Part shown: positions 22,107 to 48,890 of the stretch, in pieces
How the letters are laid out: the number at the start of each line of letters is the position of its first letter
Numbering within the stretch: position 1 is the first letter of the stretch
DNA from: the human T2T-CHM13v2.0 reference genome, Homo sapiens
Strand: one strand, 5' to 3'
DNA length: 64,000 nt
NCBI RefSeq assembly: GCF_009914755.1
Contig: NC_060937.1
Translations under genes and position numbers: made by a program
Notes under the pieces: generated by a model
The model's database searches: none
Seen by the model: the letters and a program-made list of their open reading frames with translations, nothing else
What the model was told of the DNA's origin: nothing

Positions 22107-22109
22107 ATT

Positions 22110-22505: not shown

Positions 22506-22627
22506 AAGGCAAGTATGTTCCAGTGGTGGAAATTGAACCTCACCCCGAAAGGCAAGAAATTTCCAGTGGGGGGAATTGAGCCTCACCCCAAAAGGTGAGA
22601 AATTTCCAGTAAGGGAAATTGAACCTT
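22506..22627 (+). repeat. ~43-bp tandem repeat (~3 copies) in the HERV-I leader
   Basis: AAAGGCAAGAAATTTCCAGTGGGGGAA(A)TTGAACCTCACCCC-like unit repeated. Confidence 0.75.
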
Positions 22628-22651
22628 GAACTCTACCCCAAAACCATCAAG

Positions 22652-24375
22652 ATGGGAAATACCCCAAGCAAGACAGGGAGCAAGAAGGATAAAGATGGTA
22701 ACAAAGATATCCCCCCAGATAGCCCCCTAGGTCTCATGCTAAAATACTGGAAAGATAATGAAAGGATAATGAAAGGATTAAACATAGGAAAAAGCAACAA
22801 ATGATAAAATATTGCTGTTTTATTTGGACTCAGGGACCCATCCTCAGACCCTCAATCTTCTGGCCAAGGTTTGGATCAAATGAGGGTGTAATGTGTCAGC
22901 TTCTAATCTGATACATTAATGATAAAAGTCCAGTGTCCCAAGAAGAACTAGGCTATGCCCTTTGTTGGAGGGAAGGACCTGCCCTTCTTTTTCCCTTAAA
23001 AACAGATAGGGAAGAACCCAATCTAGCACATCAAAATTAAAAGTCAGAGGAGCCAGCTCTCATGCCTAAAGACTCCAGTGCATGGGATCCCCTAGACTAT
23101 CTTCCCCCATTCAGTGTCCTCAGTCTTTCCCCTCAGACAGCCATTGCCGCCTCAGATCCCTTTCCAAATTTCCCCTCTACTCACGTTGTCCCTCCTCCTT
23201 ATAACCCTGACTCTTGGGAATTACTGTCCCACCAGCCTGTTCCCTCCCAACCTAAATATCCCTCTCCAAAAGGACTCTAGTGTGAGGTAGAACAATGTAA
23301 AAAAGATATTCAGAATTTCCCATTTCTCTCTGTACCTAAGAGGTCAGCCCTGACCCTCTTCCCTTTGAAAGAGGTACCACGAGGTGGGGAGGGCCATTGG
23401 CTTTGTAAATGCTCCCTTAACCAGTTCAGAAGTCTGGAATTTTAAAAAGGAGCTTAAACCACTACTAGATGACCCTTATGGAGTGGCAGACCAAACTGAC
23501 CAATTCTTAGGACCTCAGTTATACACTTGGGTGGAGTTAATGTCCATCTTGGGCATCCTCTTTTCAGGGGAAGAAAGGAGTATGATTCACAGGGCTGCTA
23601 TGGTAGTTTAGGAATGTGAGCACCCTCCTGGTGAAAACTTTCCTACCGCAGACCAGAAATTCCCTGCCCCTCGAGACCCCCAGTGGGACAATAACGATGC
23701 AGGTCACTGGGAAAATATGCAGGAACTAAGGGAGATGATAATAAAAGGAATTTGGGAATCAGTACCCTGAACCCAAAATCTTTCTAAAGCATTTGTTATA
23801 CAACAGGAAAAGGATGAAGGGCCTATGAGATTCCTAGACAGACTGAGGGAGCAAATGAGGCAATATGCAGGCCTCAATTTGGATGATCCCTTTGGGCAAG
23901 GAATGTTGAAATTCCAGTTTGTCACTAAAAGTTGGCCAGACACTTCAAAAAAGTTGCAAAAGATAGACAATTGGGAAGACCGTCTGCTAAGTGAGCTCCT
24001 CAGGGAAGCTCAGAAAGTATATGTGAAAAGGGATGAAGAAAAACAGAAACAAAAGACAAAACTTATGTTTTCCACCTTCCAACAGATGGCTCCAAACCCA
24101 GGTACTTCTAGACAGAGTTTCCAGGGAGCCAGAAACTATAAAGGGTCTAAACCCTATTTTAAAGGACCCAGCCTCCATCTGGAGGACCAAGGTCCAAGTT
24201 TACCAGGCCCCCTAAAGAGTATGGGGGAGCAAAGTTAAAGAATCCCAGAACTAAGAGGAAGGAAGGACAAGATAAGTGCTATAGATGTGGAAGAACAGGC
24301 CACTTCAAGAGAGGATGTCCTGAACTAAGAAAGGAGAAAGAAGCCCTTCCACTCATGACTTTCAAGGAAGAATAA
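22652..24375 (+). pseudogene. gag: HERV-I gag, disrupted
   Basis: MGNTPSK myristoylation-type start, PPPY late domain, MHR-like QQEKDEGPMRFLDRLRE and zinc knuckle CYRCGRTGHFKRGC (24277-24318). Multiple stops and frameshifts, including an 11-bp duplication at ~22754-22775. Confidence 0.88.
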
Positions 24376-26823
24376 GGGAGTCAGGGGCTCTGTCTCTTTT
24401 ATCTTGAGTCCCACCAGGAGCCCCTGATAAATTTGGAGGTGGGACCTAAACATGAGCTTATCACTTTTTTAGTTGATTCAGGGGCTGCTCACTCCTCTGT
24501 TTGTTTCCCCTCGTCTAATGTTGTCTCCTCCTCAGAGGAACTTTTAGTCTCCAGGGTAAAAGGGGAAGGGTTTAGAGCAAACATTTTAGAAAGCACAGAA
24601 GTTAGATACGAGGATCACTCAGCTCATATTCAGTTCTTGTTAATCCTTGAAGCAGGAACTAATTTACTGGGGAGGGATTTAATGTTAAAGTTGGGCATAG
24701 GTCTACAAGTCAGCCCAAGAGGATTCCTCACTTCATGAAACCTACCCACCAATGCGGATGAAAAATATATTAATCCTAATGTCTGCCCAAAGAAGGAAAC
24801 TGAGGGAAACTCCAAGTCCCTCTGATCCACATCATGCTAAAAACCCCAGGAGAAGTAGTAAGAAGGAAGCAATACCCTATTCCCCTAGAAGGTAGGATAG
24901 GGTTGAAACCTATAATCAAAGACCTTATTAAGGACAGGTTTCTGAAGCCCCGTATGTCTCCATATAACACCCCAATACTGCCAGTCAAGAACAGACGGGT
25001 CATACCGGCTAGTACAGGACCTTAGAGCTATCAACCAAATAGTCCAGACTACCCACCCCATTGTCCCCAGTCCTTACACCATTCTTAGCAAGATTCCATA
25101 TAATCATCAATGGTTTACTGTAATAGATTTGAAGGATGCTTTTTGGGCATGTCCCCTGGCTGAAGACAGCTGATATATTTTGAATGGGAGGATCCCCACT
25201 CAGGGCGGAAACAACAATATCAATGGATGGTCTTGCCTCAAGGGTTCACAGATTCCCCTAATCTTTTTGGCCAAATTTTAGAACAAGTACTAGAAAAAGT
25301 TGTCATCCCAGAACAAATATGCCTTCTTCAGTACGTGGATGACATTCTTATACCTGGTGAAGATACAGAGAAGGTAACTGACTTCTCTACACATATTCTT
25401 AACCATCTGCAGTTTGAGGGGCTACAAGTCTCAAAAAGAAAGCTTCAGTATGTAGAGCCCGAAGTTAAATATTTAGGCCACTTGGTAAGTGCAGACAAGT
25501 GAAGAATAGGGCCTGAATGAATCGAGGGAATCATGTCCCTACCCTTGCCTCAAACTACCAAGAATGAAAAACTTGCCCAGCAGAAGCCTAACCATCTCCT
25601 GTGGACTTCTGAGGAAGTTGATCAAGTTGAGGAGCTGAAGAAAAGGCTCATAGCTACCCCTGCTTTAGCCTTACCCTCCCTAGAAAAGCCATTCCACCTT
25701 TTTGTTAATGTGGACAGTGGGGTAGCTTTAGGAGGCTGACTCAAGAACACGGAGGCCACCAGCAGCCTGTAGCCTTCCTATCAAAGGTCTTAGAACCAGT
25801 CACTTGTGGATGGCCTCAATGCATCCAGTCTGTCATGGTTACAGCAATACTAGTCGAGGAAAGCAGAAAGTTAACCTTTGGAGGAAAATTGACAGTAAGC
25901 ATGCCTCACCGAGTTAGAACTATCTTAAACCAGAGAGCACGGAGATGGCTTACTGACTCAAGAATCTTAAAGTATGAGGACATTCTGTTAGAAAAGGATG
26001 ATTTAACATTGACCACTGATAATTCACTCAATCCAGCAGGTTTCCTAACAGGGAATCCAAATCTAAGGAGGGAACACACATGTTTAGATTTTTTAGACCA
26101 GACATAGGAGAAACCCCCTTCTGGACTGGACAGCACTTATTCATAGATGGTTCCTCCTGGGTGATTGAGGAAAAAAGACAAAATGGGTATTCAGTGATTG
26201 ATGGAGAAACTCTTACAGAAATAGAATCAGGAAAATTGCCCAACAGTTGGTCTGCTCAAACGTGTGAGCTGTTTGCACTCAGCCAATCCTTAAAGTAACA
26301 GAACCAGGAAGGAACCATCTATACAGATTCCAGGTATGCCTTTGGAGTGGCCCATACATTTGGGAACATTTGGACTGGACGAGGTCTCATTAATAGTAAA
26401 GGTCAAGGCCTTGTTCACAAGGAGCTGATCACTCAAGTATTGAATAATCTTCAGTTGCCGGAAGAAATAGCTATTGTCCATGTTCCCAGCCACCAGAAAA
26501 GCCTTTCTTCTGAAAGTCGAAGAAATAACCTAGCAGATCAGGTAGCTAAGCAGGCTGCTGTGTCTTCTGAAATGCGTATTTTTCACTTAACTCCCTGTCT
26601 CCCTCCTCTTACAGTAATCCCCATTTTCTCTTCCACTGAAAAAGAAAAACTAATAAAAATAGGCGCTAAAGAGAATTCAGAAGGAAAATGGGTACTGCCA
26701 GACCAGAGAGAAATGTTGAATAAACCCCTTATGAGGGAAGTCTTACCCCAACTACATCAGGGGATCCACTGGGGGCCCCAAGCCATGTGTGATGCAGTTC
26801 TCAGAGTTTATGGTTGTATAGGG
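24376..26823 (+). pseudogene. pol: HERV-I pro-pol, disrupted and 3'-truncated
   Basis: Protease FLVDSGA and LLGRDL; RT VLPQGFTDSP and LLQYVDDIL; RNase H LFIDGSS; IN N-terminus LHQGIHWG. Stops, frameshifts and internal deletions. Confidence 0.9.
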
Positions 26824-26839
26824 ACTTTGTATGTCTGCA

Positions 26840-27185
26840 AGGGGACAGAGATGGGGGAGAAATTAAAATACGGACTGGGTATTAGCTGCTATAAGGATTT
26901 TTGTTAATTTTGTTAGTGTGATTATGTCATTGTGGATACATTAAAAACAGTGCTTTAATCTGTTAGCAAGAAAACATTTTACATGAGGTGATAAGACACC
27001 TGGGGCAGTGCTAAAATATTCCTGATAATGACAAAAGTGTGTGTGTGTGTGTGTGTGTAGAAAAAGCAAGATGGAAAAATGTGCACAATTACTGAAACTG
27101 AAGGATGAATATGTGGGTGTTCATGGTATTCTTCCTTGACTTCCTGCAAGTTAGAACATTTCCATAAAGTAACAAAAAGTTAAAA
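26840..27185 (+). mobile_element. Old L1M (L1ME-like) 3'-end fragment with (GT)11 at 27037-27058
   Basis: GATGAATATGTGGGTGTTCATGGTATTCTT...AACATTTCCATAAAGTAA resembles the L1ME 3' terminus. Confidence 0.6.
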
Positions 27186-27313
27186 TATATAATGTATGTA
27201 TGGAGTTCTGAAATTATAAATGGCTTCAAATACAGAAAAACTTCTTAAATTCCTCCATTGCCCAAGGAATAAATGTCCAGTGGTAAAAAATTCAGGGAGA
27301 TAGGCAAGGATGA

Positions 27314-27696
27314 TGTCTTCATCTATTTGTTCTGCTATAACAAAAATACCTGAGACTGGGTAATTTTAAAAGGACATAAATTTATTTCACATACTTCTGG
27401 AGGCTGGGAAGTCCAAGATCAAGCCACTGGCTTGTTTGGTGTCTTGCAAAGGCTGCTCTAAGCATCCACGATGGCGCCTTGTTGCTGAGTTCTCTGGAGA
27501 GGAGGAACCCTGTGTCCTCACATGGTGAAAGTCAAGAGAGCCAAATGCTGCACAAAGCCTCTTTCATAAGGGCCTTAATCCCATTCATGAGGGAGCACCC
27601 TTTTGACCAATCACCTCTTAAAGGTCCCACCTCTTAATGTTATCACTATCAGTTTAAATACCTGAATTTTTGAGGGGACACATTCAAACCACAGCA
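27314..27696 (-). mobile_element. MLT1A-type MaLR LTR
   Basis: GCTATAACAAAAATACCTGAGACTGGGTAAT...GGAGGCTGGGAAGTCCAAGATCAAG...CATTCAAACCACAGCA. Confidence 0.85.
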
Positions 27697-28899
27697 GAGA
27701 AGGACTCATGGGAGAAGAGACTGTCACCTGCCTGATTCAGACCCATGGTTTTCTGTTTGCCCAACCATCTACTTGGGACTCTACCTGAATTCATTCTTAT
27801 TGGCCAGGTCTTCACTTCTTGCCAGCAGCACAGCAGGAGGACAAAGCAGAGGGTCCCGTCTCCTTGGCTCACTGCTGTGCTCCCTCCAGCTGAGGGAGAA
27901 GGACCTTATAAAAGTCTTAAGTGTCCCAGCCTTGGTCTCCAGGACAGTGTGGAATGTCAGGACCTGTGACATCATGACCAGGAAGGGAGCTGCTGGCATC
28001 TTGCCTGGGCTGAGCAGAGTTTCTATCCAGTCTATGACTGGGTAGGAGGGAGGAGGTTGGTGGGAGTCTTAAGGTAACAGAGATCCTCTCTCCCATTGCT
28101 TTTTATGGTGACTTCCTCCATCCTGAGGACTCTGAAGACTGAAGGGGTAGACACTAATTAGAACTCTAAGTGCCAGTAGCCAAAAGCCAACAAAATCTGC
28201 TCCCATGGAAAGAGGTGTATTTGAAGGATGCTGGAGAGGTCATTGAGTTACAGAGCAAGTGCCAGAACCAACAGATCCAGAGGGTCTAATCACCTCTTAA
28301 AGGCCCCTTGAGGAACAGAGCCTTGAAGAACAGAGGCCCGTGGCCCCATGTCCCTTTCCACTCTCTCCCACCCTCAAAGTTCCAGGGTGGTGAAGAACAG
28401 GAGACAGATGACCCAGGTTTCAGCATCCTTTCCCTCAAACCTTCTTTCTCAGCATCAGTCCCAATCTCCCCTTGGCAGTGAGACTTTCATCACAAGAGGA
28501 GAACATGGCTGCATTTCCATGTTATCATCCTCCCAGCTTGATTTCCTAGACTTTCTAGAGCTTTCTTCATCAGCACAGTGACAAACCCCAAAGGAGTCAC
28601 TCTGGTTGACTCCCCTGGATCCTATCTCACCCCTGGACTGACTCCTATGTCCAGGGCTCAGAGTGGGGCACCTGGTTTAGACTGGGCCAGGAGTGGGGTC
28701 CCGGGTGAACAGCCCTCAAATCTCAGCTCCATGGTAGAGAGGGAGAAAGAAGTGGTCCTGAATGTACAACCGTGCCTCCTGAGACCAGGTCAGGACCCTA
28801 AGGATGGCTTGACCACCAGGGATCTTTGACCCTATTTTTTTATTGCTGATATGGGGGTTTGAAAAGACTTTCTCACTTTAAACATTATTTTTCACCTCG

Positions 28900-29950
28900 G
28901 AATTCTTGTTTGATTCAATTTCAATTAGCTGGGCTTTATGTTTTATTATTACATTTTCATTTCCCTTAAAATGAATGCATGGATATTATAATCTGTGACT
29001 TCACTGTGTATCATTCTAACAATGAAATGATTGGGAATGATACACTTGGCTCAGGCTGTCTTTTCCTCAGAATTTCTTAAAAATAATATTTTATTTTTTG
29101 GAGTAGTTTTAAGTTAACAGAAAAATTGAACAAAAAGTTTCCATATACCTCCTTATAAATTTTAGAGAAATACTGAATGTTGCTGTGGAGAAGTCTGAGG
29201 CCAATGTGATTACCGTTCTCTGCTGTGTGAGATTTACTTTGCTGTTTGAACACGTGAAGTATTATTTCCTTATCTTGAAGTTCAATAGCATAATTAGGAT
29301 TTATCTTGATGTTTTTATTCCCCATTAAGTTTCACAGAAAAAAAGGTATGTTTGATATGCAAATTTAAACTTTTAGTTTCAAGAACTTCTCTTATCTTAA
29401 TCTTTGCATGTACCATCAGGTATCTGTTTGGTTCTTGACTCAGGGACACTGGTTTTTCTTATATTGGACTTTCATTGTCTGTCTTCAATGTCTAATAGCT
29501 TTTCACTGACTAATGTTACTCCTTTGTCTTTTTCACTTCTATTCATTTTGTTTTTGTCCATGCAAGTCATTTAATTTCTAGAAATACCTATATTATTTCT
29601 TGTTTCTATTCTCTATTGTAATATTGTTAGATCCTCAATTTAATTATGCCCCTCTATATCAATTCTATTGTGTTTTGTTCATCTTTGGGCTTTTTTGTAA
29701 TGTGTCAGTTTTTCCATCCCATGAAGAATTGAGAGGACTTTCCTCTGTCTTTTGTATTGTGTTTCCTCTGTGTTGTTGTTTTGGTTGGCCTTTTGCCTGG
29801 TATTCTTTTTCTTTGATTGCTATTGTTTTAATAAGTTTGTGCTATTCCGTGTATTTCTTTTCACTTTGCTTGTATTTGGGCATGTCTCTCAGATGTTATT
29901 ATGATACACAGTGAATGACCATTTGGTCCTCTTCCAATCTTCTTTAAGTC
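28900..29950 (-). mobile_element. Ancient L1M/HAL1-like fragment with a short younger L1M 3' piece at ~29075-29152
   Basis: T-rich strand bias; ATGTTGCTGTGGAGAAGTCTGAGGCCA and TCCTTATCTTGAAGTTCAATA resemble antisense old L1 ORF1 region. Confidence 0.5.
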
Positions 29951-31294
29951 ATATTTGTTTTCTCCTCACATTCCTGTACCCTATTCTAAGCAAGAGTTTG
30001 AGGACTGGGTTGTGTAGGCTGCCTCATTTTCTATGGCCTAAAGAAATGGAGTTGGGGAAAGAGGGTGGAACAAAGAAGGTGCGGTAATAATGTCACATTT
30101 TTTGAATTTCTAAGTTCATAGAACAAATTTCTGCTCCCGAAAAACATGATAAGAAAAAATAGAGGTTTCAAACCACTGGGAGGAGATGAGATCATTAGAC
30201 CGTTCATCTTTATGTAACCAGACTCCTCAGTTAAAGGTCATTTTCAAAGCACACCTGCACTTGTTTTTTTCTTATGAAAATATCCTGTATATCCTTAATT
30301 TGGCAATATAAATGTGACCAATTGTTTTAAAAACAGAAGTGATGCTGGATATTAAAATGTAAACTGTTTTCTAAATGAAAAACTTAAAGGAATGTAATTA
30401 GAGAAGTATAAACAGTGGTTAATATGCTGCTTCTTGAAAAGACATATTACAACTTACAGTCTTTCTTCATAAGTGTATGTTGTTACTGTTTAATCAGGCG
30501 TGTGATTGTATTCAGCTGTTAAGCAATCCTATTAGCTGGGAAATTGCATTATTATTTGCTGGTCTGTTTATGTTATATTGTTGTTGGCACTCTAAGTTTC
30601 TCTTTTTTCTCCAAGCCTTTCTTACTCTGGTCTCTGTAATCTGTATAATTGTCTTTTTTAACTTTTATCTTTAGAAAATATTGAATAGAGATACTGGGAG
30701 TGATTAACTGTGTCAGAATCACAAAGTTCTAGTGCTTTTCAGATTAATCCTGGAGACATTATGTTGCTGTTTTAAAAGACAGAAGGACCTAGATCCATCA
30801 TGGAGTGCCACAGCAGGGTTGTGGCCAATGGTCCTTCCTGCCTAGGGAGAATCCACAAATGGTATCTAGGAAGACCTGCTGCTGACCAGACCAAGGCCAC
30901 TTCAGTGCATGACATCTTCTTGGACTCATCAACCTTGACCTCAATGGTCAGAGATCTCTCTACTAGTAATTCTAAGTGTTGGCAACAAAAATGAAGAGAG
31001 CAAAATAGGGAGTGCTCTCTATTCTGGGGAAGCAACAGTGGAAGATTTGCCTGAGTAAGAAAATCTCCTAAAAGTTTTCTGTGTCCATCTAAACATTCAT
31101 ACATTCATACATACTTCATTCCTTTGTTCATTCATTTATTTTCCTTGTCTTCTCATAGAATATGTTTTCTGAGATCAGGTTACTATGTTGCTGTTACAGG
31201 AAATCGGATTAATTTTAAATTTCTATATGCAATAAAACAAAAGCCTTTGACATCTCCCTTTTATTTTCAACAGTTAATGAGTTTAGAAGCTCAT

Positions 31295-31650
31295 TGATAC
31301 GGTTTGGCTGTGTCCCCACCAAAATCTCATATTGAATTCCCACGTGTTGTGGGAGGGACTCAGTGGGAGGTAATCGAATCATGGGGGCAGGTCTTTCCCA
31401 TGCTGTTCTTGTGGTAGTGAATAAGTCTCATGAGATCTAATGGTTTTATAAAGGGGCGTTTCCCTGCATGAGCTCTCTCTCTTTGCCTGTCACCAGCCAT
31501 GTAAGACAGGACTTGCTCCTCCTTGCCTTCCACCATCATTGTGAGGCCTCCCAAGCCACATGGAACTGTGAGTCCATTAAACCTCTTTTTGTGTATAAAT
31601 TACCCAGCTCTGGTATGTCTTTATCAGTAGCATGAAAATGGACTCATACA
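31295..31650 (+). mobile_element. THE1B-like MaLR solo LTR
   Basis: TGATACGGTTTGGCTGTGTCCCCACC...AAATGGACTCATACA; TSD CTCAT/CTCAG. Confidence 0.9.
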
Positions 31651-32380
31651 CTCAGTTTTAAAACAAGTTACATGAAGTTGCAGAGCTCTTTAAGAAAGCC
31701 ATGACTTGCCCAGACAAATCAGTACTAGTGTGTTAACTGAACTCAATTTGATTTTTCTGGGCTTTGCTTTGTATTGGCCCCTTCTTGTTAAATAAAAATA
31801 AGAAATTAAATAAAAATGTTAACAAATAGTTTTGACAAAACTGAATATAATACACAAAACATTGTGATGCAGCTTAAAATTTAAAAAGAAAAAAAGAACA
31901 GCTTCAAGAGAATTAAGTACTAATTAAGTACTAAGAGAGCAATCATCAGAGCTAGATACAAAACATCTAATATCTTTTGAGAAACATTCCTTATGTTACC
32001 CAATTCTTCCTTACACATCTTACTGGCTAATTGAGAAAGCAATGCATTAAAATCACATTGAAATGAATTAATATGATAACTGGAAGCAATGAGAGGTAAC
32101 TGAGACATAATTGCAAATGCAGAATTTTTTTCAATTTGAAATTGAACATTTAACAACCAATTTGGAATTTTCTATTTTTGAAAATCCAGTAGCTCTTGGA
32201 GTGAATAGACCAAATGACTCCATTTTAATAGGTCTCATCATTGATCTCTGCTTATGAAATTTGCTTCATTGCCTTTGTGTACCTGAGACTGAAATGCAGA
32301 GCTGTTCTGGAGCCTCCAGGTAGTCCAGGATTTCAGTGCAAACTTGTCTTACACAAAGAGGTCTGTAAAAATAATCTGGC

Positions 32381-32752
32381 TGCTATGATTTGAATGTCCT
32401 CTCCAAAACTCATGTTAAAGTTTAATTGTCTTTGTGATGGTATTAAGAGATGGGACCTTTAAGAGTTAATTAGGTCATGAGGGCTCTGCCTTCCTGAATA
32501 AGTTAATGCCATTATCATAGGAGTAAGTTTGTTATCTCGGGAATTCAGCCCCCTTTCTCTCTGTGTCTTGCACCTGCCTCACCATGTGATGCCTTCTGCC
32601 ATGTTAGGATGTAGCAAGAAGGCCCTCACCACCTGTGGCCGTACAGTCTTGGACCTTCCAGCCTACAGGACCCTGAGACACACAAATCTCTCTTCTTTAT
32701 AAATTACCTAGTCTATAGTATTCTATTACAGCAGCAAAAACAGACTAAGACA
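32381..32752 (+). mobile_element. MST/MLT1A-type MaLR solo LTR
   Basis: TGCTATGATTTGAATGTCC...CAGACTAAGACA; TSD CTGGC/CTGGT. Confidence 0.85.
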
Positions 32753-33018
32753 CTGGTCTTTTACTTTTGATTTTGTTTCTATTGATTTTTACTAGGTACA
32801 TCTAATTTCACCTCTTGAAGATGGCTGACATGGTCACTGAACTGAAGCTTTGTGGTGAAGAAACTATTAAGCAAATGGGGAGGAAGAGCCATACAATTTC
32901 ACTTTAGTGAGGAGCTAAGAACTAATTTTATTCCAAAATCAAACTCATGCCAAAAACGGGCCAATGCAATCATTTAGGGATAAAGAACCTAGAGTTTCAG
33001 GCATGAGTGGAAATGTGC

Positions 33019-34449: not shown

Positions 34450-34779
34450 AAGGTTCTACAATTACTGATCCTGACACTTAGGATGTGAGTTTAGGTAGAG
34501 ATTTGGGAAGTTCAAGATTGCTCATCATTTTATCTGGTAATGTCTTTTGCTCAAGTGACACCTTTTACTTCAACTGCTATTGTTTGCCTCACTAGTTTCA
34601 CTTGTGGGATTTTTCAAAAATGCATCATGATTGATAGAGTTAAAATTAATCTTTCTTGATGTAAAGCATATTGTGTTCATTGCTGTGGGCCTGCTATGTT
34701 TAGTATTGCAATGCCAGTGGGTTTATATCACCTACCAGTTTATCTTGTTATAACTCATCTGACTGCTTTATCTCTGTGA

Positions 34780-34990
34780 GGTAGCTGTTTAGAGCTTGGG
34801 TTCTGAAGTCAGATGATTTGAGTCTGACTCTTGGCTTTAGTTCCTGAATCCTGGACAAATACCTTCACCTCCCTGGGCCTTCCCTTCCACATCTTCCAGA
34901 TGTGCACATGGTAGTGCTTATCTCATAGGATTTTGTGTATGTGTGAGGATTGAGTCAGACAAATAGGAAGTGTTCAGTATGTTGTCCATT
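34780..34990 (+). mobile_element. MIR SINE
   Basis: TTAGAGCTTGGGTTCTGAAGTCAGA...CCTGGACAAAT...ATCTCATAGGATTTTGTG...GAGGATT. Confidence 0.6.
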
Positions 34991-35399
34991 GTTACATTAA
35001 TCTAAAAAGAACATTGGATAACATTTGAATATCTTCTGTGCCTAAAATGTCTATAGCCTTTCTCTTATTTATTTGTAATTCTCTGCTGTTTGAGTTTCTG
35101 ACAGGCTCTATATTTCTAAGCTTTTATTTAGTCTTGATTAATTTTAGTGAAGTTTTTCTTCAATTTAGTCAAAATAATGTATTTACCATAGGAAGTTAAT
35201 AGTTAAAGATAATTGTTATGTTTGATCTTTACGTAATTAAAACTTGAGAATTTTATCCTTTCAGTTCCTATGTAGGTTAGTTTTTCCTCAATATGGCTAA
35301 TGTGGGTGGTATCTTGGATTGAAATATCTTATTTCCTCAAGTGTACAATCCATTTTAAATAGCAATTTGTGTGGTTGGTAACCATTAACTTGATAGAAA

Positions 35400-36136
35400 C
35401 GTTAGGTCTGAATCTGTCTCTACAAAATTCATGTGTTTGGAACTTAATTTCCAGTGGGGTAGTGTATTAACTCATTTTCATAGTGCTATGAGGAAATACC
35501 CAAGACTGGGTAATTTATAAAGAAAAAGAGGTTTAATGGACTCACAGTTCCACATTGCTGGGGAGGCCTCACAATCATTGTGGAGTGTAAAGGAGGAGCA
35601 AAGGCACATCTTACATGGTGGCAGGCAAGCGAGCGTGTGGAGGGGAACTGCCCTTTATAAAACCAGCAGATCTCATGAGACTTATTCACTATCACGAGAA
35701 CAGCATGGGAAAAACTCAACCCTATGATTGAATTACCTCCCACCAGGTCCCTCCCATGACACGTGGGGATTATGGGAGCTAAAATTCAAGGCGAGATTTG
35801 GGTAGGGACACAGCAAAAACATATCTGGTAGTATTAAGAGGTGGGATCTTTAGGAGGTGATTAAGTCACGAGCATGGAGCTCTTAAGAATGGAATTAGTG
35901 ACCTTACAAAAGATGTGTGAGGGAGCTGTTTGCTGCTTCCACCTCTTCTGCCAGGTGAGGATGCAGCAACAGGAAAACATGTTGGAAGCAGAGAGAAGTC
36001 CTCACCAGACACTGAATCTGCCAAAACCTTGATCTTGAACTTCCCAGCCTCCAGAACTGTTCAAAATAAATTTCTGTTCTTTCTAAATTATCCAGTCTGT
36101 GGCATTCTGTTATAGCAGCAGGAATGGACTAAGACA
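35400..36136 (+). mobile_element. MLT1A0-like LTR interrupted by a THE1
   Basis: 5' part 35400-35462 resumes after 35831 (TATTAAGAGGTGGGATCTTTAGGAGGTGATTA) and ends GGACTAAGACA. Confidence 0.82.
35463..35826 (-). mobile_element. THE1 (THE1C-like) solo LTR nested in MLT1A0
   Basis: Perfect TSD GGTAG (35458-35462, 35827-35831); antisense THE1 termini. Confidence 0.9.
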
Positions 36137-36749
36137 ATTTTATTGAACATCTATCTAAAGAAATGCTACTTCCTTTACTCAAAAATAAAACATGAAGTTT
36201 CTGCGGGTCAGGAAGACCTCTTAGACCAAGTCATTGGTCTGACTATGAGATTCAACTTCCAGGATCCTTTTCTGAGTCTTGCTTCTCTCTCTCTGCTAAA
36301 TTTAAGCGCTCCTGTTCACCATGGAGTCACTATGTTTAAGTAGAGCCCTGCGGCTCTCACACTGCATGTCTGTTTGGATGCTCTTGGGGGCCTTGCAGGA
36401 GTTTTAATGTGGACTGATGTAGGCATGAGGATTCTCAGAGCCCCATGGTATGTTTGCCGTGCAGTGAAACTTGAGGACCACGGCCTACCCAACCTCTGAT
36501 TCTCTGCAGCAACCCCCAGGGTCACGTGGGGACCTGCAAAGTTTGTTCTAAAATTGAGGTGATGAGAGGGGGCTGAGTTCGGAGTGCTACCTCCTTCCAC
36601 ACCAGCTCTACACACTCATCTCCCCTCCACACTCACACTCCTCTGTGCAGTAGTGCAGGCTCCAAGAAATTCCCTTAGAAAGAACTCCTCTTAACTTTGC
36701 TCTATACAGCATTTCCAAACTTAATATCAAATTAGTTCTGTGGTAATAC

Positions 36750-37025
36750 GTGGGCTTATTTTATTAACACATTAAATAAGGATTAGTGGCTATTTCAAAA
36801 CACCTGCAACAGCTTAACATGTGAAATATATGGTTTCTGTTGGTGACAAAGGTACGGGTACCGTGGTTTGTTAGTTGCATTTATAATTAAAGGAAGAGCT
36901 AAATTTCAAATAAAAATTACTGAAAATAAACATGAGATTATTTTTTATCCCAAATTCACAGACCCCCTCCCAACCCCACCTTCCTGCCCCATGCTGCACT
37001 CTCTGTCCATGGGCCCTGGTTAGGG
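36750..37025. mobile_element. hAT-Charlie DNA transposon fragment
   Basis: CATTTATAATTAAAGGAAGAGCTAAATTTCA...TGAAAATAAA...CCAAATTCACAGACCCC resembles a Charlie subterminal region (from memory). Confidence 0.45.
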
Positions 37026-37644
37026 GAAACCCAAGTTGGAACAGGACTCAGGGCTTTTCTTTGACCTGGCTTTTTGCAAACACAAGAAATGCATGGGCTG
37101 GGCATGGCGCTGGTGTGAGAGCTGCACTTTCTGTAGTGACCTGAAGCCTGAATTCACCTCGACCTCCAGTTCCTCCTGCCTGGGAGCTGGTGAATGCCCG
37201 TTGGATCCATTGGAAGGGGTGAATCTCCCTCTTGGCTGTCTCTGTCCAGAGCTGTTCCTCAGGGACTTCCTTGCATTGGGCTCCTGCCAGTCTCAGGGAC
37301 TTCTCAGTCTCTCTGTTGATGGCCCATCAGAGCTCACTCCACTTGTGAAGGCTTTCTCCTGTCATCCTTCCTGGAAGCTCTTTGAATACCGACCACGGCT
37401 GAGCACTGCACTGCCTCCCTGCCCAGCTGCCACTGGGCTTGGATGATTTTCAACCTCAACATGAAAGGGAAACTTTCAGATGGCATCTGGGCTTTGCTAT
37501 TTCTGGTGTGGTGTCATTAAAAGCTGCCTCAGTCTAGCATCTGTGATTTCACTTTTTGATATAAAAAAGATATGAACTGTTAGTGCAATAGTGCAGAGAA
37601 TGATATCCAACTTTTATTTTATGTATATATTTTATTTGTGTCTC

Positions 37645-38137
37645 ATAAAGGGGTTCAGAACACAATAACCCAAAGCATGGCACTTTGACATTTGAGAAAA
37701 CAGCAGAAGCAGGAAGGTCTCTCTCATCTTACTCTGCCCTTCTACCCTAAAGCAGGTCATGAGACCCTCATTCAAGAAGTACACACCCTATACCCAAAGA
37801 AAAGAAACATTCTTATCTCTGAAGACACAGAGACACACAGAGAATAATCTGAACACACCAGTCTTACTAAGCCACCCTATGCCTCCCAGGTTACCACCGT
37901 TCGATCACGCTCCCTTTGTCCAGCCATACTTCCCCGAGACTGTCTACTCTTCATCAAACCTAGCATAAAAAACATGTTTCCCTATTTCTTTGGGTCTTTA
38001 TTTCTGAAGACTCCCATGTCACATACAAATTATATTAAATACACTTGTCTGCTTTCTTCTTCTTAATCTGTCTTATAGGAGCCTCAGGCATAAACTTAGC
38101 AAAGGGTGAGAAAATATGTATCTTTTTATTCCCTACA
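37645..38137 (+). mobile_element. MER39-like ERV1 LTR
   Basis: GGGGTTCAGAACAC...GCAGAAGCAGGAAGGTCTCTCT...AAGCAGGTCATGAGACCCTCATT; ends CCCTACA. Confidence 0.7.
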
Positions 38138-38688
38138 TTTGTATTTATGTTGAAATGCAAAGACAGGCAAAAATAGAGGGCTATACGAATTCAGCAGGAT
38201 TCTAAATTATTAACTTGGAAAGTACTTTCAAACTCTGGAGGAAAGTTTCTAATTACTTTTGGAAGGAAAGGCAGTATTATGTAAGAAAACCACATTTTCT
38301 ATCATGCATTACTAAACTAACTACGGAAGTCACATCCTTATGCCTTTTTGTAGCTAACATTGTTTCTGACCCCTAAGAACTGACTGAAGCAAACAGATCA
38401 AGTTGATTCAGTGTTAGGTAAATAGGAGGGTGGTGAGATTTTAAGATAAACTTACCAGAGCAAGAAAGGATCAGTGCTTCAAACAGGTGCAAAACAAGTA
38501 GGGGAAAGGTAGAATTAAGCACTCTTGTTTTCAAGTTACAAAATGTTCACATTTGTTTCTAATGTTTACTTAAACACTCTAATACCCTAAAAAATCGACA
38601 TCCTTGAATTTGAAGGTCAGTAAAATATAAATAACACAGTTACTGCTTTTTGGAATATCTCTGTGGATTCATTCAGCACTCTTGCTAT

Positions 38689-39014
<326 letters not shown>

Positions 39015-40286
39015 GCTCTTGCTATTTTATTTCTTTTATTGTTTTGCTAAGAATTTTAAAAATTTAAATGTTTACCATATAAAATATCTTACTGCCTTGG
39101 CATTTTTATACCATACATCTCAGAATATTATAATTTGTTAGTTTATCTTGTAAATTATCCCTTGTTATACAGAGAATCTGACCAACTCACCCATTCCCTG
39201 GTCCAGTTGCCATTTTATTTTCTCTAGGAGATTTCTCTTTGGAGAAATATCCTGGTAGCTGCCTGCATGATTGGCAAATTGAAGTTGGAATTTTTTATGG
39301 TCTGTATTAATTGATCTGATTCTTAGAAATTAATTCCCTTCCTAAGAAAAGTACCCTCTTCATTTCTGCTTTTTGCAAGGAGTCATTGGCATTTGTCCAA
39401 CAGTTAATGAGAAATTATTATATAATTACATTTAACTTTTTTCTCAATTCTTTCTGTGTTTGACATAATGTTGAAAAAGAAACTTGAATGGAAAATACAT
39501 CAATAAAATAAAAGCATATTGCAATTATATTCTGACCTTGGCTTTTCCCTCTATATTTCTCACAGGTTAATTATATTCTAAAGCATACCAAGCTCTTCGT
39601 GTTTGCTGCTGGAGTGACTGTGTGTTCCCTTGCCCTTAGATGAAGAAATGCTTTCAAAACCTCTGAAGATGCCTGAATGGTCTGAGGTTCTAATGGTTTA
39701 CATTTTCTTATCGTTCATATGGATAAAAATATGGCTGCATTCCAACTGTCAAGATACATTTGTGTGTTGCCTATAAAACTAGCTCTTCTGTTTAAATGAA
39801 GAGCAGATAAAAAGCATGTATGCAATTAGTCTAATCGGTTCAATGGCAAATTACAGAGCAAAGATTGTGGTAGGATAATCTTTCGGATTATTCATTCTGA
39901 GTTTAAAAATGTTTTGGCTTCTAACAGAAATCCTTTAATTATATGCTAAAGTGGTGATAACCTCATTACAATAGTTTTGCTTATTCCTCAAAGCATTTAT
40001 TAGTTTACTTCTTTAAAATTTGAAAGTGACTATAAAGTTAGGAAGTAAACATTTTTGAAAGGATCAATTAATGATTTAATAATTTGAATTGTTCTCCAAA
40101 GATTAGACATGGCAATTGAAAATAAATGTAGAAATCTCTTCCCTATGGTCATCAAAATTTTGACATGTATTCATATGCCTACTTATAAAGGAGATTGGCA
40201 GCACATAATTGATACCATCTAGCCTTTATTTACAGCAATCAAACATAAGACCTTGACAACATTAACATGCCCTGTGTGCATGTGTG

Positions 40287-44326: not shown

Positions 44327-46252
44327 TGGATCTTAATCCTAGAGATGGACTCTTAAGCATTGTCTTTTTTGGGACAGCACTGGAATAAAAATTTTCAGAT
44401 TTACATGAGCCAAGAGAAGAGAGCAACGCTCTGAATTATCCTTGGGGAAACGGGGGAAGACAAAGTCTGCGGCACCCTGCAACTCACCCCGTAAGCTGTC
44501 GGCCTGCTGTAAAGACATGTAGGGTGTTAATTCCTTATATGACAAAACAAATTTTGATAAATTTGATTAGAATTTTATATCTTGTGCTGTTTTCTAGGAT
44601 GCACATGGGGAAGACGGACATTTTTGTAATTTTAGTAAAGTTCTGTAGGATGATGCACTGTGTAGCTAAAGGTGGTTGTTGTTGTGATCTCATGTTATGG
44701 TTCTAGATTTCCAGGTAGTAATTTAAGTGTAGAGTAACATAATGGTGCCAGCCATTCATTTTATGTTAAGTGTGCTTTTCCCACTCTCATACCACAAAGG
44801 CAATGTTAAATAATTACAGAGAATTGATTATGAGGCCAAGAAAATGAAAGGCTACTTTTGAATGATGCTTTAATACAACTTAAAAGTTAAATGTGAAGGA
44901 AACAGATAGACTTCTAGATTCATTCAGAGCCCAAGGCCCTGTTACTTCTAAAATCACAGAGTTAATAATCTCAACTTGGGGAGACTGATTTGCTGTTAAA
45001 GATCATGCAAAGAGTGAGGCTAGTGAATATTAGTGATTCTAGAAAAGTGATTCTCAAATATTTTATTACGTTGCGGCTAACAAAATTGTTAAGGAGAGAC
45101 CTGAGTAGAGAGACTCCTGAGTGTAACACTTAGTACCCTGAAAGTGTAAGATTTGGACTCCATTTTATGAACATTTTAATCCACGTGATCATTGTTTTGA
45201 TTGAAATGTCTATATAATTGAGCCTGGTCTTAACATTTCCTTAAATATTCACCATTAGAAGTAATCTTCTGTGAAAAAAAAAAAAAGGATCTCTTAGTTG
45301 GCTGATCTTGGCTTGCTCATTTTAATACTAGGAAAATGATGTTAATTTTTTTAAGAAAGACTTAATGGTGCCATGATTAAGGGTGATGGTTACTGGTGCT
45401 TAAAAAAAACTTCCCTCCCCAATTTTATGATATTTGTGCATTTTAGAAATTTTTGGATATCTTTTAAGGAAAGCACTGAGCATGTCACAGATAACCTCTG
45501 TTGATATTTTTACGTAAACCTTTCTTTTTACTGTGCTTACGACATTTTTAATAAAATAAGATCACATTGTGCAAAGTAAATATGGAGTCCTTTGTAATCT
45601 GTATTATTTTAAAACTGAAGTATTAAAGATTATTCCATTCCACTTAATATTATTTTTCTGCATCAGGCATTTGAACATGTGGTCTGTGACCCCACATAAG
45701 GAGGTGATGGCAGTGATGCCACCGCCCATCAGGAAGGCAGCTGCAGCCTCACACCCAACAGCATTGAACCTTAAGGTCATGGCTGGGAATGTAGACCCGT
45801 CCAATGTTCTCAATTTGTTTTCCAGTGAGGGCTCTAGGACGAAATCCTCTTTCATGAGTCATGTGAAAGATGAAACGTGTGGCACTGAGTTTTGCATTCA
45901 AAATAAAAAGAATAGACTATTCTAACATCTGTTACGTTGCTGTTTTGCTTATTCTTGTGGAACTTAAGAACAAAGTGAAAACACCTATTGGTTAGTTGCT
46001 TTCAAATAAAATGTATTCATCGCTAATTTGTCCTTGTGAAAGGGTGCCCATTCCTAATGCAGGTGCACTGGCCGTGTGCACTCCATGGTCCCAGCAGCTC
46101 TCGCTCCCTGGACTCCCGCCGTAGTGAGCGTTTACTAAGGACCTGTTGATCTGGAAAGACAAACCCAACCCAAAGGAGATTAAGGTACAGGGAATAAGTT
46201 TGTGGATCGTTCTTTTCTGAAACAATATTTTACTCCTTTTGCTTCTTTTTAG

Positions 46253-46411
46253 GGTATCGTGCAGCAGTTTTTGGTGTTACTGACGACCAGCTCTGACGAG
46301 AGTCTTCGGTTTCTTAGCTTCAGGCTGGACTTCAACGAGCATTACAAAGCCAGGGAGCCCAGGCTCCGCGTGTCTCTGGGTACCAGGGGGCGGCGCAGCT
46401 CCCACACGTGA
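46253..46411 (+). pseudogene. TUBGCP3: Orphan copy of the last coding exon of TUBGCP3 (gamma-tubulin complex component 3), reading frame intact
   Basis: Polypyrimidine tract plus AG at 46251-46252, then [52 protein letters not shown] (52 aa, TGA 46409-46411). This matches the GCP3 C-terminus as recalled, including the GRIP2-end RLDFN motif. No upstream TUBGCP3 exon was recognised in the window. Confidence 0.85.
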
Positions 46412-47345
46412 AGCTCGCGGTCCTCCCAGGGAGCTGCGGGTGATGTTCGTTGCACTGCTAGACACGAAATTCCCATTGACGTCCTGCAGGAACTGCATGC
46501 TGCAGGTGTCCTGCCCTTCCGCCCACGAGTGCGCCATGTTTCAGCGGAGCGGCGTGTGGGAGAAGCCACGTCGTGTTGCACACGTCGGAGTTGAATGCAT
46601 TTGTAAATCACTAAGTCAAGTAGGCTGGCTGCACTGTTCACATTTGTCTCTAAAAGTCTTCATCCCCAAAAGATACCATAATTTGCTGAGGCTTCTGAAT
46701 CTTAAGTGCTCTAAGTTATAACTTATATTTGTCACTTTAAAAGAACTGTTTGTTTAGCAAAATCTACAGCAAGGGTATATTTATAAAGTGATAATGTCAT
46801 TGCTGTTATTTAGCATCCTCTTCAGAAACTTTTTTTTGCAATATTATTAGATTAAACTGAAATACATAGAAAATATAGAGAGCATTTTATTATCTTGGTA
46901 TTCAAGGTTGTAAAGTGTGAAAATTTTTGTATCTTACATATATCTATTCTTTTCTCTCTCCTTTCAAGGTTTACACTTACAGATTTAATTTACTATTCTA
47001 GATAACTTCTAAAATAGTACAGAACACGAGTAGGAGTGTTGTGGAACAAAAACATCCTTAAACTTAAATTTCTTGACGCCACCAGCTGAAGCAGTGTGGC
47101 AACAGGAATGACTAGAAAGTTAACAAAGTATTTTATTTTTACAATTTTGATGAGCATTATAAAGAAATCGATTTGGATAATGAAGGTTTCTTTTTTCTTT
47201 GACTAATTTTTCCTTGTAAATATTTATATACTATTGACCAGATGCTGGGGAGAACGGTGTCTGTAAAAAGTCACGTCATATCAGCTTGCCTTTATTATGC
47301 TGTATAAGTGAAAACTTAGAAAACTGAAAGCAATTATCTTTCAAA
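46412..47345 (+). other. TUBGCP3-like 3'UTR homolog
   Basis: Follows the stop codon; CpG-rich proximal part, AU-rich distal part with TGTAAATA (47216-47223). Homology to the TUBGCP3 mRNA 3'UTR is from memory. Confidence 0.55.
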
Positions 47346-47939
47346 GCATTGGCTGTTTTTTGAATAGTCTATTAAGTGACAGTTCATTTGCCAGGGGGGC
47401 GGGGATTGACAGGATTTGATTTAATGTAGTACAGCATATGAATTATTTAATCATAATTAGAAACCAAGAAATTAGATTTTGTGTGACTTTCGGTGTAGAA
47501 GCAAACGCAATGTCACCACTCAGGTCTCAGGAGCGGTGCTTTAGTTATCTGAATCTGCCTCTGACTCCTTTAGGTGTGGATTCCCTTTAAAACTAAAGGG
47601 GCCATCAAGAATCCTGGCCATGCAGAAATGATTCCATGGCAAAGGCCAGAAATTCTTAGGATAAAAACTTAATTTAATTTTAGTTTTCAAGTTCATAAAA
47701 TCAGAAATTTGAAACAGATTTCTCCACTGCAAGTTGTCCTAGAAATTATGGCGTATTGTGTATCTCCGAGAGAGGTTTACCAAGGTTATTAACCATGCAG
47801 CCAGCTTTTATTTTATTTTATTCAGAGAGTTGTTCCAGGGATTAATCCTCGGTAGAAACCACCCTAGCAAAGGCCCACCTCGATTTTAGGGATTACGACT
47901 CCATTGGAGTGTAGGAGTCACCAGGACTTAGGTCAGATC

Positions 47940-48890
47940 TGTGGGCTATGGAGGGCTTCCGGGAGGTGCGGCCCTGGGGGGTGCCTGCGGGTCTGGAGGG
48001 TGGGAGCTGGGATGGGGTGAGGCCTCTGAGGAGCTGCGTGAGACCCACTCTCCGTCATTGTGGGTGCACAATCAGGCCCCTTAGGGAGCCAGGGCCCCAA
48101 AACCCAGCATCAGCCAAGCATGGATGACTTGGGGGTTCCACACTGGGGTTGTGCGTAAAGGAGAGCTCCTCTCAGGGGTGGGTGCGCCCGGCCCGGGGGT
48201 GCCACGTCTTCACCCAGAAAACGAGGCCGAGTCTGCAGGGGCCCTGCTGCATGGATGGAGGTGTGGGTGGTTGGTAGGACCCCAGGCCGGTCTCCAGTAG
48301 ACCCAGGGGCAGGAGTGCAGGTGCCCTTCCTTCTGGCTTCCACAGTGGGAGGCAGCAGAGCCCGCCGGCTGGAGATGGGGGCCCCCCGCAGTCCAGCCCC
48401 CTGCACCTGCAGCACAGGCTCTCGGCGAGGAGGACCAGGCCTGGCTGGAGGCTTCCAGGGCTGCGGGGCCACCCCCAACCCGTCTCTTTTCCTGTGCAGG
48501 CCATGCCTGTTTTTAAGGCACCTCCTCCTTCTCCATCGTGGCTTCTGGCCCTACCCTCAACGGCACAGGCCACACACCCGGGCCTGCGAGCCTCCTCCCG
48601 CAGCCGCTTGCTCCGGTCCTGGGGTCTTCTGGCTCTGAGGCCAACCCCGCTCCCCCATCCCTGCTCTGCTCTGAGGTGCCAGCCAGAGCCGCTCAGGGTC
48701 CTCCGTCCGGTTTCCCGTGGGCCTAACAGCAGGGCCCTGGGGCCACTACCCGCACCTCCCTGCCTCCATCTCAGAAACTGAAGCCTGGGAGCCCCCTGGG
48801 CCACCTGAGTCTGGGAGACGCAAGCCAATCCCGGGGACAGGCCCCGGCCCCTTCCTAGTGAGGGGCACGCTCTGGTCAATCGTGGGGCAG
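47940..48890. other. GC-rich unique block in AT-rich surroundings
   Basis: About two-thirds G+C; ~38 CpG in ~950 bp by manual count (O/E ~0.4, below the CpG-island threshold). Confidence 0.6.

What the first reader, a model, noticed from the sequence alone, without database searches (positions are those of the whole stretch)
45500..47345. Young core and old flank: candidate gene-converted repeat that could switch the TUBGCP3 3'UTR by inversion
Seen: ~26 CpGs in 46253-46590 (O/E ~0.8) and scattered CpGs back to ~45500, against CpG-poor neighbours. A dead, methylated duplicate should have lost these. Recalled, not verified: the exon and first ~280 nt of UTR are near-identical to the human TUBGCP3 mRNA, but after ~46690 similarity drops sharply while staying colinear to ~47345, where the gene's ATTAAA appears as ACTGAA (47324-47329). 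Inference: an ancient duplicate whose ~1-kb core is homogenised by gene conversion, as in inverted-repeat pairs such as F8 int22h or FLNA-EMD. If it lies convergent to TUBGCP3 on the same chromosome, crossover in the core would invert the interval and swap the distal 3'UTR and poly(A) region without altering the protein.
Basis: partly seen in the sequence, partly recalled or inferred. Interest (0 to 1): 0.85.

Follow-up and report, generated by a model that had tools for sequence, protein, structure and literature searches.

The report
TUBGCP3 tail copy patched by conversion
The last exon of the lncRNA LINC00431 is an old, inverted partial copy of the end of the TUBGCP3 gene 1.5 Mb away, and short stretches of it have been rewritten recently to match the gene exactly; this is a clear but ordinary case of gene conversion, with no sign yet of the proposed inversion switch.

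Summary
Window 45705-48162 (+) is a genomic, not processed, copy of the TUBGCP3 3' end. It covers the end of the last intron, the last exon and about 817 nt beyond the poly(A) site. The partner lies 1.51 Mb away on the same chromosome, inverted and convergent. Identity is a mosaic: about 72%, 91%, 100%, 93%, 77%, 90%, 97%. The perfect stretch is 369 nt (46209-46577) with 24 CpGs; no shuffle of 10,000 gave a run above 83 nt. The best reading is an old duplicate patched repeatedly by interlocus gene conversion. Cross-species trees could not be built here.

- A second young core lies at 47793-48162.
- The block is not isolated. Window ~1-48162 is inverted paralogy to chr13:111.60-111.79 Mb, with perfect runs up to 596 nt.
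- LINC00431 exon 2 reuses the inherited splice acceptor and the proximal ATTAAA.

The geometry of the inversion and UTR-swap idea is correct. Nothing shows that it happens, and the homology is short compared with known toggling repeats. Novelty: a new member of a known kind.

The parts
45705..45815 (+). Left edge of the duplicate (from the TUBGCP3 last intron); oldest stratum, 72% identity, K2P 0.37, one 21-nt gap
45816..46208 (+). Intron-derived stratum, about 91% identity (K2P 0.098); 10 CpGs here against 4 in the TUBGCP3 intron
46209..46577 (+). Core 1: a 369-nt tract identical to C13:111733302-111732934. It holds the splice acceptor, 52 codons of the GCP3 C-terminus (46253-46408), the stop codon (46409-46411), the first 166 nt of 3'UTR and 24 CpGs
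46578..46711 (+). Shoulder of core 1, 93% identity
46712..47442 (+). Old stratum: distal 3'UTR copy, 77.5% identity, K2P 0.275, 17 gap events, GC 0.30. The distal poly(A) signal is lost (ACTGAA at 47323-47328)
46851..46856 (+). Proximal ATTAAA shared with TUBGCP3 (111732657). It is the only canonical hexamer in the copy downstream of the stop codon. The LINC00431 exon ends 19 nt later, at 46875
   Evidence: hub annotation
46253..46875 (+). LINC00431 (NR_126378.1) exon 2, the exapted TUBGCP3 terminal exon. 325 of its 623 nt are identical to the TUBGCP3 mRNA
   Evidence: hub annotation
47443..47792 (+). Stratum downstream of the poly(A) site, about 90% identity (K2P 0.108)
47793..48162 (+). Core 2: 97% identity (10 transitions, 1 transversion in 370 nt), GC 0.57. 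Homology ends at 48162
34450..40268 (+). Further inverted, colinear homology (74-87%) to a large TUBGCP3 intron (C13:111786787-111778228). It holds no exons
1..32953 (+). Block A of the same inverted paralogy, against C13:111682774-111603654. Identity runs from 66 to 98%, with perfect runs of 596 nt (12775-13370) and 396 nt (12150-12545)

Best explanation
Window 45705-48162 is a DNA-level partial duplicate of the 3' end of TUBGCP3. It lies 1.51 Mb centromeric of the gene, in inverted and convergent orientation. It is the distal end of a larger old inverted paralogous region, window ~1-48162 against chr13:111.60-111.79 Mb.

The copy is old: the flanks have diverged to about 72-77% identity, with many indels. 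Short patches have been overwritten again and again by non-allelic (interlocus) gene conversion with the TUBGCP3 locus. This left strata of about 91%, 97% and 100% identity.

The youngest tract is 369 nt and spans the splice acceptor, the last 52 codons and the first 166 nt of UTR. That explains why 24 CpGs survive in a non-coding copy: they are re-copied, not preserved. With recalled mutation rates, zero differences puts the last homogenisation within about 5 My (95% bound) if the CpGs are methylated, or about 12 My if not. This dating is inference.

LINC00431 uses the inherited acceptor at 46253 and the inherited proximal ATTAAA at 46851 for its terminal exon.

What is shown: the homology, orientation, distance, mosaic and run statistics. 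What is inferred: conversion as the mechanism, its timing, and its direction. TUBGCP3 is the probable donor because its reading frame is under selection.
For: - Two copies only, inverted, on the same chromosome. The TUBGCP3 exons lie on the minus strand.
- Not a retrocopy: it holds 548 nt of intron-derived sequence and 817 nt beyond the poly(A) site.
- Mosaic: the strata show 72.2, 90.9, 100, 93.0, 77.5, 90.0 and 97.0% identity. Chi-square for heterogeneity is 189, df 6, p 4e-38. The segments were chosen after seeing the profile, so that p is descriptive only.
- Test free of segment choice: the longest perfect run is 369 nt. Over 10,000 shuffles of the match vector the mean was 36.7 and the maximum 83, and 0 of 10,000 reached 369.
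- The old stratum (46712-47442) is sandwiched between younger ones, which a single duplication date cannot give.
- The perfect tract ignores functional borders, running through intron, coding sequence and UTR.
- The same pattern holds region-wide: 14 perfect runs of 100 nt or more, up to 596 nt, inside paralogy that falls to 66%.
- Identity correlates with GC: Spearman 0.61, p 4e-22, n = 207 windows of 100 columns. This fits GC-biased conversion or GC-rich hotspots.
- Antiquity of the low stratum: the Alus at window 16901-17292 and 38679-39010 have no counterpart in the partner, where the gaps are 216 and 45 bp (coordinates).
Against: - No outgroup or orthologue was available, so the defining phylogenetic test was not done. 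That test asks whether core sequences cluster by species while flanks cluster by paralogue.
- Direction and dates rest on recalled rates.
- The correlation of identity with GC, and the overlap of some high-identity patches in block A with RefSeq-annotated enhancers, would also fit stronger constraint on functional GC-rich elements.
- No PRDM9 13-mer lies in the block.
- The order of the two paralogous blocks is not that of a simple inverted copy. The duplication history is therefore more complex than stated, and unresolved.
Confidence: 0.8

Rival explanations
1. Functional inversion switch. Crossovers in the homogenised core recurrently invert the ~1.5-Mb interval. TUBGCP3 would then alternate between its own distal 3'UTR and the copy's distal UTR, which lacks the distal poly(A) signal.
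For: The geometry is as required: same chromosome, inverted, convergent. The two loci evidently interact, given the perfect tracts. 132 of 183 sequence-resolved balanced inversions have flanking inverted repeats of 200 bp or more (passage of the Porubsky et al. preprint). The copy keeps only the proximal ATTAAA, so a swapped allele would be predicted to end about 460 nt after the stop instead of about 990 nt.
Against: No inversion here was found in print. Neither 'chr13' nor '13q' occurs in the main text of two inversion surveys; their supplements were not seen. Repeat length is the main driver of recurrence, and 23 of 32 recurrent inversions have repeats of 10 kb or more. Here the perfect homology is 369 nt at 1.5 Mb distance. 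The longer perfect tracts (596 and 396 nt) lie in block A outside TUBGCP3, so exchange there would leave the UTR untouched. CHM13 carries the same arrangement as the reference cDNA NR_126378.1 (hub annotation).
Confidence: 0.05
2. Purifying selection, not conversion. The core is kept identical because both copies carry a functional element, for example a translated 53-aa GCP3-tail micropeptide from a LINC00431 isoform, or a shared UTR regulatory element.
For: A proteogenomic study lists the sORF M+GIVQQ...SSHT (53 aa) from lnc-ARHGEF7-7:3 with one peptide match (supplement). It also notes high PhastCons and PhyloCSF over the sORF (passages). The peptide begins with M, whereas GCP3 has Q at residue 855, so it is not a canonical GCP3 tryptic peptide.
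Against: Selection does not give 0 differences in 369 nt that include synonymous sites, 24 CpGs, 44 nt of intron and 166 nt of UTR. Neutral-looking flanks 100 nt away are 7-25% diverged. In NR_126378.1 the tail frame has an upstream stop and no ATG. The peptide support is a single match at probability 0.90. Perfect tracts also occur in non-coding block A.
Confidence: 0.07
3. Local mutation-rate heterogeneity. The GC-rich, CpG-rich patches are germline-hypomethylated and simply mutate more slowly, while AT-rich stretches diverge faster.
For: Identity correlates with GC (rho 0.61). CpG O/E is 0.86 in the core.
Against: The contrast is K2P 0 against 0.275 within 150 nt, far beyond known regional rate variation (established knowledge, not tested here). 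Other GC-rich aligned segments are only 85-88% identical, for example 14096-14429 at GC 0.54 and 85.7%, and 27960-28743 at GC 0.51 and 88.5%.
Confidence: 0.03
4. Assembly artefact: the TUBGCP3 exon was copied or collapsed into this locus.
For: None beyond the perfect identity.
Against: The flanks on both sides are colinear but diverged. A curated cDNA (NR_126378.1) and an independent LNCipedia model on hg38 carry the same exon (hub annotation).
Confidence: 0.01

Closest known systems
PMS2 / PMS2CL on 7p22
   Same: A partial copy of the 3' end of a gene sits in inverted orientation on the same chromosome arm some hundreds of kb away. Ongoing sequence exchange makes the 3' exons of gene and copy locally indistinguishable.
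   Different: PMS2CL is a young, long, high-identity segmental duplication. Here the copy is old (flanks about 75%), the TUBGCP3-derived block is 2.46 kb, and only 369 nt are identical. No clinical or diagnostic consequence is known.
F8 int22h and FLNA-EMD inverted repeats
   Same: Inverted repeats on one chromosome that are homogenised by conversion. A crossover within them inverts the interval between them.
   Different: Those repeats are about 10 kb at over 99% identity and lie 50-500 kb apart, and both orientations have been observed. Here the perfect homology is 369-596 nt, the distance is 1.4-1.5 Mb, and no inversion has been observed.
Inversion 'toggling' between inverted segmental duplications (Porubsky et al. 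preprint, passages read)
   Same: Inverted paralogous blocks flank a megabase-scale interval.
   Different: Most recurrent cases (23 of 32) have repeats of 10 kb or more at 79% identity or more, and repeat length is the main predictor. This pair is patchy, and the longest contiguous alignment at 92% or more is 3.9 kb.
Concerted evolution of mammalian gene pairs by long-lasting gene conversion (PMC2720389; abstract from the search listing and one passage seen)
   Same: Stretches of homogeneity between old paralogues that are kept up by repeated conversion.
   Different: That work treats pairs of intact genes. It mentions TUBGCP3 only as a binding partner of TUBG1/2, not this locus.

Membership tests
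Interlocus (non-allelic) gene conversion between paralogues | Two paralogous copies in one genome | tested here: met
   exactly 2 matches; one 2531-column alignment.
Interlocus (non-allelic) gene conversion between paralogues | An identical or near-identical tract significantly longer than the overall divergence allows (GENECONV-type test) | tested here: met
   the run is 369 nt; the maximum over 10,000 shuffles was 83, and 0 of 10,000 reached 369.
Interlocus (non-allelic) gene conversion between paralogues | Phylogenetic discordance: the tract clusters by species and the flanks by paralogue | not testable with these tools
   No other mammalian genome is held by any tool.
Interlocus (non-allelic) gene conversion between paralogues | Older sequence on both sides of, and between, the young tracts (patchwise replacement) | tested here: met
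   strata of 72, 91, 100, 93, 77, 90 and 97% identity.
NAHR inversion-mediating inverted repeats (int22h / FLNA-EMD type) | Inverted orientation on the same chromosome | tested here: met
NAHR inversion-mediating inverted repeats (int22h / FLNA-EMD type) | Long, high-identity homology (typically 10 kb or more for recurrent events; 200 bp or more as a minimum) | tested here: inconclusive
   Perfect tracts of 369, 396 and 596 nt exceed 200 bp. No repeat of 10 kb or more at high identity exists; the longest alignment at 92% or more is 3.9 kb.
NAHR inversion-mediating inverted repeats (int22h / FLNA-EMD type) | Both orientations of the interval observed in people or between species | not testable with these tools
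   No population or primate assemblies are held. Nothing was found in print.
Processed (retro) pseudogene | Intronless cDNA copy ending in a poly(A) tract | tested here: not met
   The copy holds intron sequence (45705-46252) and 817 nt beyond the cleavage site. There is no A-tract at about 47345.
Segmental duplication by the usual database rule (1 kb or more at 90% or more; rule recalled) | 1 kb or more at 90% identity or more | tested here: not met
   The focal block is 84.4% identical with gaps and 88.5% without. Its part at 91% or more, 45816-46711, is 896 nt. Pieces of block A do meet the rule, for example 7417-11314 at 92.4%.

The most novel reading that the evidence does not exclude
The inverted paralogue pair covers about 48 kb here against chr13:111.60-111.79 Mb, with perfect tracts of 369-596 nt. 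It may be an unrecognised NAHR substrate that has inverted, or still occasionally inverts, the ~1.4-1.5-Mb interval. That interval holds SOX1 (shown) and ARHGEF7 (recalled). Crossovers inside the TUBGCP3 core would then produce TUBGCP3 alleles that carry the LINC00431 distal UTR and lack the distal poly(A) signal. The odd order of the two paralogous blocks could be a trace of such past rearrangements.
Probability: 0.07. Interest if true: 0.75.

Novelty: new member of a known kind. Interest (0 to 1): 0.4.

Why it matters
1. It is a clean example, readable from a single genome, of conversion keeping a CpG-rich patch young inside an old non-coding duplicate.

2. It bears on published LINC00431 work. 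325 of the 716 nt of NR_126378.1 are identical to the TUBGCP3 mRNA. Short reads, qPCR amplicons, probes or knock-down reagents placed there cannot tell the two apart. In the two LINC00431 papers searched for the word, 'TUBGCP3' has 0 occurrences in the main text.

3. The 'conserved sORF' reported for LINC00431 is the GCP3 C-terminal tail plus a methionine. The paper reporting it also has 0 occurrences of 'TUBGCP3' in its main text.

4. Conversion in the other direction could carry variants from the copy into the last coding exon or the UTR of TUBGCP3.

5. The pair is a candidate substrate, so far without evidence, for a megabase inversion around SOX1.

Tried and rejected
- PRDM9 13-mer CCNCCNTNNCCNC: 5 matches in the window against 2.08 expected, none inside 45705-48162.
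- Tandem repeats in 45000-51000: only 5 trivial rows.
- Rfam on 45000-49000 at E up to 1: 0 matches.
- Other TUBGCP3 exons in the window: own-genome scans with PF04130 and PF17681 found only window 46217-46345. A sensitive BLAST of 40000-45800 against the 44.8 kb of partner between the blocks added only a 49-nt match, 45236-45284.
- Extension of the paralogy to the left of the window: a search with C13:111680001-111690000 found only window 2523-4110, at 96%. A search with 111720001-111730000 returned only interspersed repeats. Both are inconclusive, because repeats fill the scored slots.
- To the right of 48162: only L1-type repeats.
- Processed-pseudogene reading: rejected, because intron and downstream sequence are present.
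- ATG-initiated GCP3-tail ORF in NR_126378.1: absent. Candidate ATG|GT donors near 39677 and 39693 could serve the LNCipedia isoform, but this is unverified.
Whether published LINC00431 reagents hit TUBGCP3 therefore stays open.
Full report
**1. The observation**

The window is T2T chr13:110174001-110238000 (hub note; confirmed). In 46253-46590 there are 26 CpGs, with O/E 0.86 and GC 0.60. O/E is 0.22 in 44000-45499, 0.28 in 46591-47345 and 0.23 over the whole window. A search of the window's own genome with 45500-47345 found two places only: the window itself and C13:111732118-111733777 on the minus strand. The 52 codons at 46253-46408 equal residues 856-907, the C-terminus, of human GCP3 in PDB 6v6b_B.

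**2. Extent and nature of the copy**

BLAST against 30 kb around the TUBGCP3 3' end gave one alignment: window 45705-48162 against 111733777-111731312, inverted, 2531 columns, 84.4% identical. The copy holds three parts:
- 548 nt derived from the last intron,
- the whole last exon,
- about 817 nt beyond the poly(A) site.

It is therefore a genomic duplicate, not a retrocopy. TUBGCP3 exons lie on the minus strand, and the penultimate exon ends ...ILTHFYQ at 111736812 onwards. The copy sits at the lower coordinate on the plus strand, so the two are convergent and 1.51 Mb apart.

**3. The mosaic**

A global alignment and per-segment counts give the following strata.

| Window coordinates | Identity | K2P | Notes |
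|---|---|---|---|
| 45705-45815 | 72.2% | 0.37 | left edge |
| 45816-46209 | 90.9% | 0.098 | intron-derived |
| 46210-46577 | 100% | 0 | core 1 |
| 46578-46711 | 93.0% | 0.074 | shoulder |
| 46712-47442 | 77.5% | 0.275 | 17 gap events |
| 47443-47792 | 90.0% | 0.108 | beyond the poly(A) site |
| 47793-48162 | 97.0% | 0.031 | core 2; 10 transitions, 1 transversion |

The longest perfect run is 369 nt (46209-46577). In 10,000 shuffles of the match vector the mean longest run was 36.7 and the maximum 83, and none reached 369. Heterogeneity among the segments gives chi-square 189, p 4e-38. The segments were cut after seeing the profile, so that figure is descriptive only.

The perfect run covers 44 nt of intron with the acceptor, all 156 coding nt, the stop codon (46409-46411) and 166 nt of UTR. 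It does not respect functional borders. An old stratum lies between younger ones. Only patchwise replacement, or very uneven constraint, can produce that.

**4. Poly(A) signals**

Downstream of the stop codon, TUBGCP3 has two canonical hexamers: ATTAAA at 111732657 and at 111732138. The copy keeps only the proximal one, at 46851. The distal one reads ACTGAA at 47323-47328. LINC00431 exon 2 (46253-46875, hub annotation) therefore uses the inherited acceptor and the inherited proximal signal.

**5.

A search with window 27000-45704 found further inverted matches near TUBGCP3. I fetched C13:111590001-111820000 and ran BLAST with the whole window. There are 27 colinear minus-strand alignments in two blocks:
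- Block A: window 1-32953 against 111682774-111603654.
- Block B: window 34450-48162 against 111786787-111731312.

Identity ranges from 66% to 98%. Fourteen perfect runs of 100 nt or more occur. The longest are 596 nt (12775-13370), 396 nt (12150-12545) and the 369-nt run of the finding. Over 207 windows of 100 columns, identity rises with GC (Spearman 0.61, p 4e-22).

Block B upstream of the focal block matches only a large TUBGCP3 intron. No exon other than the last is present. The window has 5.4 kb where the partner has 44.5 kb. Alus at 16901-17292 and 38679-39010 are private to the window copy, because the partner has gaps of only 216 and 45 bp there (coordinates). This fits an old origin for the low-identity stratum.

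Each block is inverted, yet their order is not that of one simple inverted copy. This remains unexplained. The interval between the paralogues contains SOX1 (SOXp domain at C13:111311504-111311893). That ARHGEF7 also lies there is recalled, not tested.

**6. Mechanism**

The best reading is an old inverted duplicate that undergoes repeated interlocus gene conversion with its partner. With recalled rates (1e-8 per site and 1.1e-7 per CpG base per generation, 29-year generations), zero differences in the 369-nt tract bound the last homogenisation at about 5 My if the CpGs are methylated, and about 12 My if not. This is inference. The CpGs are young because they are re-copied. In the 91% intron stratum the copy keeps 10 CpGs against 4 in the gene. 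The link between identity and GC fits GC-biased conversion or GC-rich initiation sites, but it would also fit constraint. No PRDM9 motif, tandem repeat or Rfam family marks the block.

**7. The inversion idea**

A crossover in core 1 would invert the interval and give TUBGCP3 the copy's distal UTR, which has only the proximal poly(A) signal. The protein would be unchanged. The logic is sound, but nothing shows that it happens.
- No paper holds TUBGCP3, inversion and breakpoint together.
- Searches on 13q34 with inversion and on ARHGEF7, SOX1 and inversion gave nothing relevant.
- The main texts of the Porubsky et al. preprint and of PMC13629690 do not mention chr13 or 13q. Their supplements were not seen.
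- In the preprint passages, 132 of 183 resolved balanced inversions have inverted repeats of 200 bp or more. Recurrence, however, is driven by repeat length, and 23 of 32 recurrent cases have repeats of 10 kb or more.
- The longer perfect tracts lie in block A outside TUBGCP3.

**8. Literature on LINC00431**

Seventeen papers hold the name. In the two on LINC00431 biology where I searched for it, 'TUBGCP3' has 0 occurrences in the main text (passages only). PMC7418880 also has 0 occurrences. It presents LINC00431 as a peptide-encoding lncRNA with focal conservation (passages). Its supplement lists the sORF M+GIVQQ...SSHT, 53 aa, with one peptide match at probability 0.90. That sORF is the GCP3 tail plus a methionine. 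GCP3 itself has Q before G856. In NR_126378.1 the tail frame has an upstream stop and no ATG. The only paper holding both TUBGCP3 and 'gene conversion' that concerns mammals names TUBGCP3 merely as a tubulin partner.

**9. Verdict**

The 'young core, old flank, gene conversion' reading is well supported from within one genome but lacks the cross-species test. The orientation is as predicted. The inversion switch is unshown and unlikely to be frequent. This is a new member of a known kind, with practical consequences for work on LINC00431.

Noticed in passing
window 1-48162 against C13:111603654-111786787: Nearly the whole left three quarters of the window is inverted, colinear paralogy to the SPACA7/TUBGCP3 side of 13q34 (the gene name SPACA7 is recalled). 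There are 27 alignments at 66-98% identity. Perfect runs of 596 nt (12775-13370) and 396 nt (12150-12545) overlap RefSeq-annotated enhancers and an exon of LOC105370364.
   Followed up: partly
window 32953/34450 junction; partner 111682774-111731312: Blocks A and B are each inverted, but they stand in the same order as in the partner, and the partner's 48.5 kb between them has no counterpart here. This is not the layout of a single inverted duplication, and the history is unresolved.
   Followed up: no
window 14096-14429 and 20479-21474: These two pieces are contiguous in the partner (111640045-111638722). In the window they are split by about 6 kb that matches 111634789-111630579, which indicates a local rearrangement inside block A.
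   Followed up: no
window 46253-46411, plus an upstream exon near 39617-39695: A published 'LINC00431 micropeptide' sORF (53 aa, one peptide match) is the GCP3 C-terminal tail plus an initial M. The RefSeq isoform has no ATG for it. ATG|GT donors at 39677 and 39693 could supply one in the LNCipedia isoform.
   Followed up: partly
window 46253-46577: 45% of NR_126378.1 (325 of 716 nt) is identical to the TUBGCP3 mRNA. Expression and knock-down studies of LINC00431 may therefore cross-read TUBGCP3. The two LINC00431 biology papers and the sORF paper checked have 0 occurrences of 'TUBGCP3' in their main text.
   Followed up: partly
window 47850-48900: A stretch of about 1 kb is GC-rich (0.61-0.69) but CpG-depleted (O/E 0.26-0.45). 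The paralogy ends inside it at 48162. What the rest of it is remains unknown, and no tandem repeat was found.
   Followed up: no
window 40269-45235: About 5 kb lies between two pieces that are adjacent in the partner (111778228 and 111778223). It has no match in the 230 kb of partner sequence examined. It may be an insertion private to this copy.
   Followed up: no
window 45816-46208: The intron-derived stratum of the copy keeps 10 CpGs where the TUBGCP3 intron has 4. This suggests faster CpG decay in the body of the transcribed gene than in the copy.
   Followed up: no
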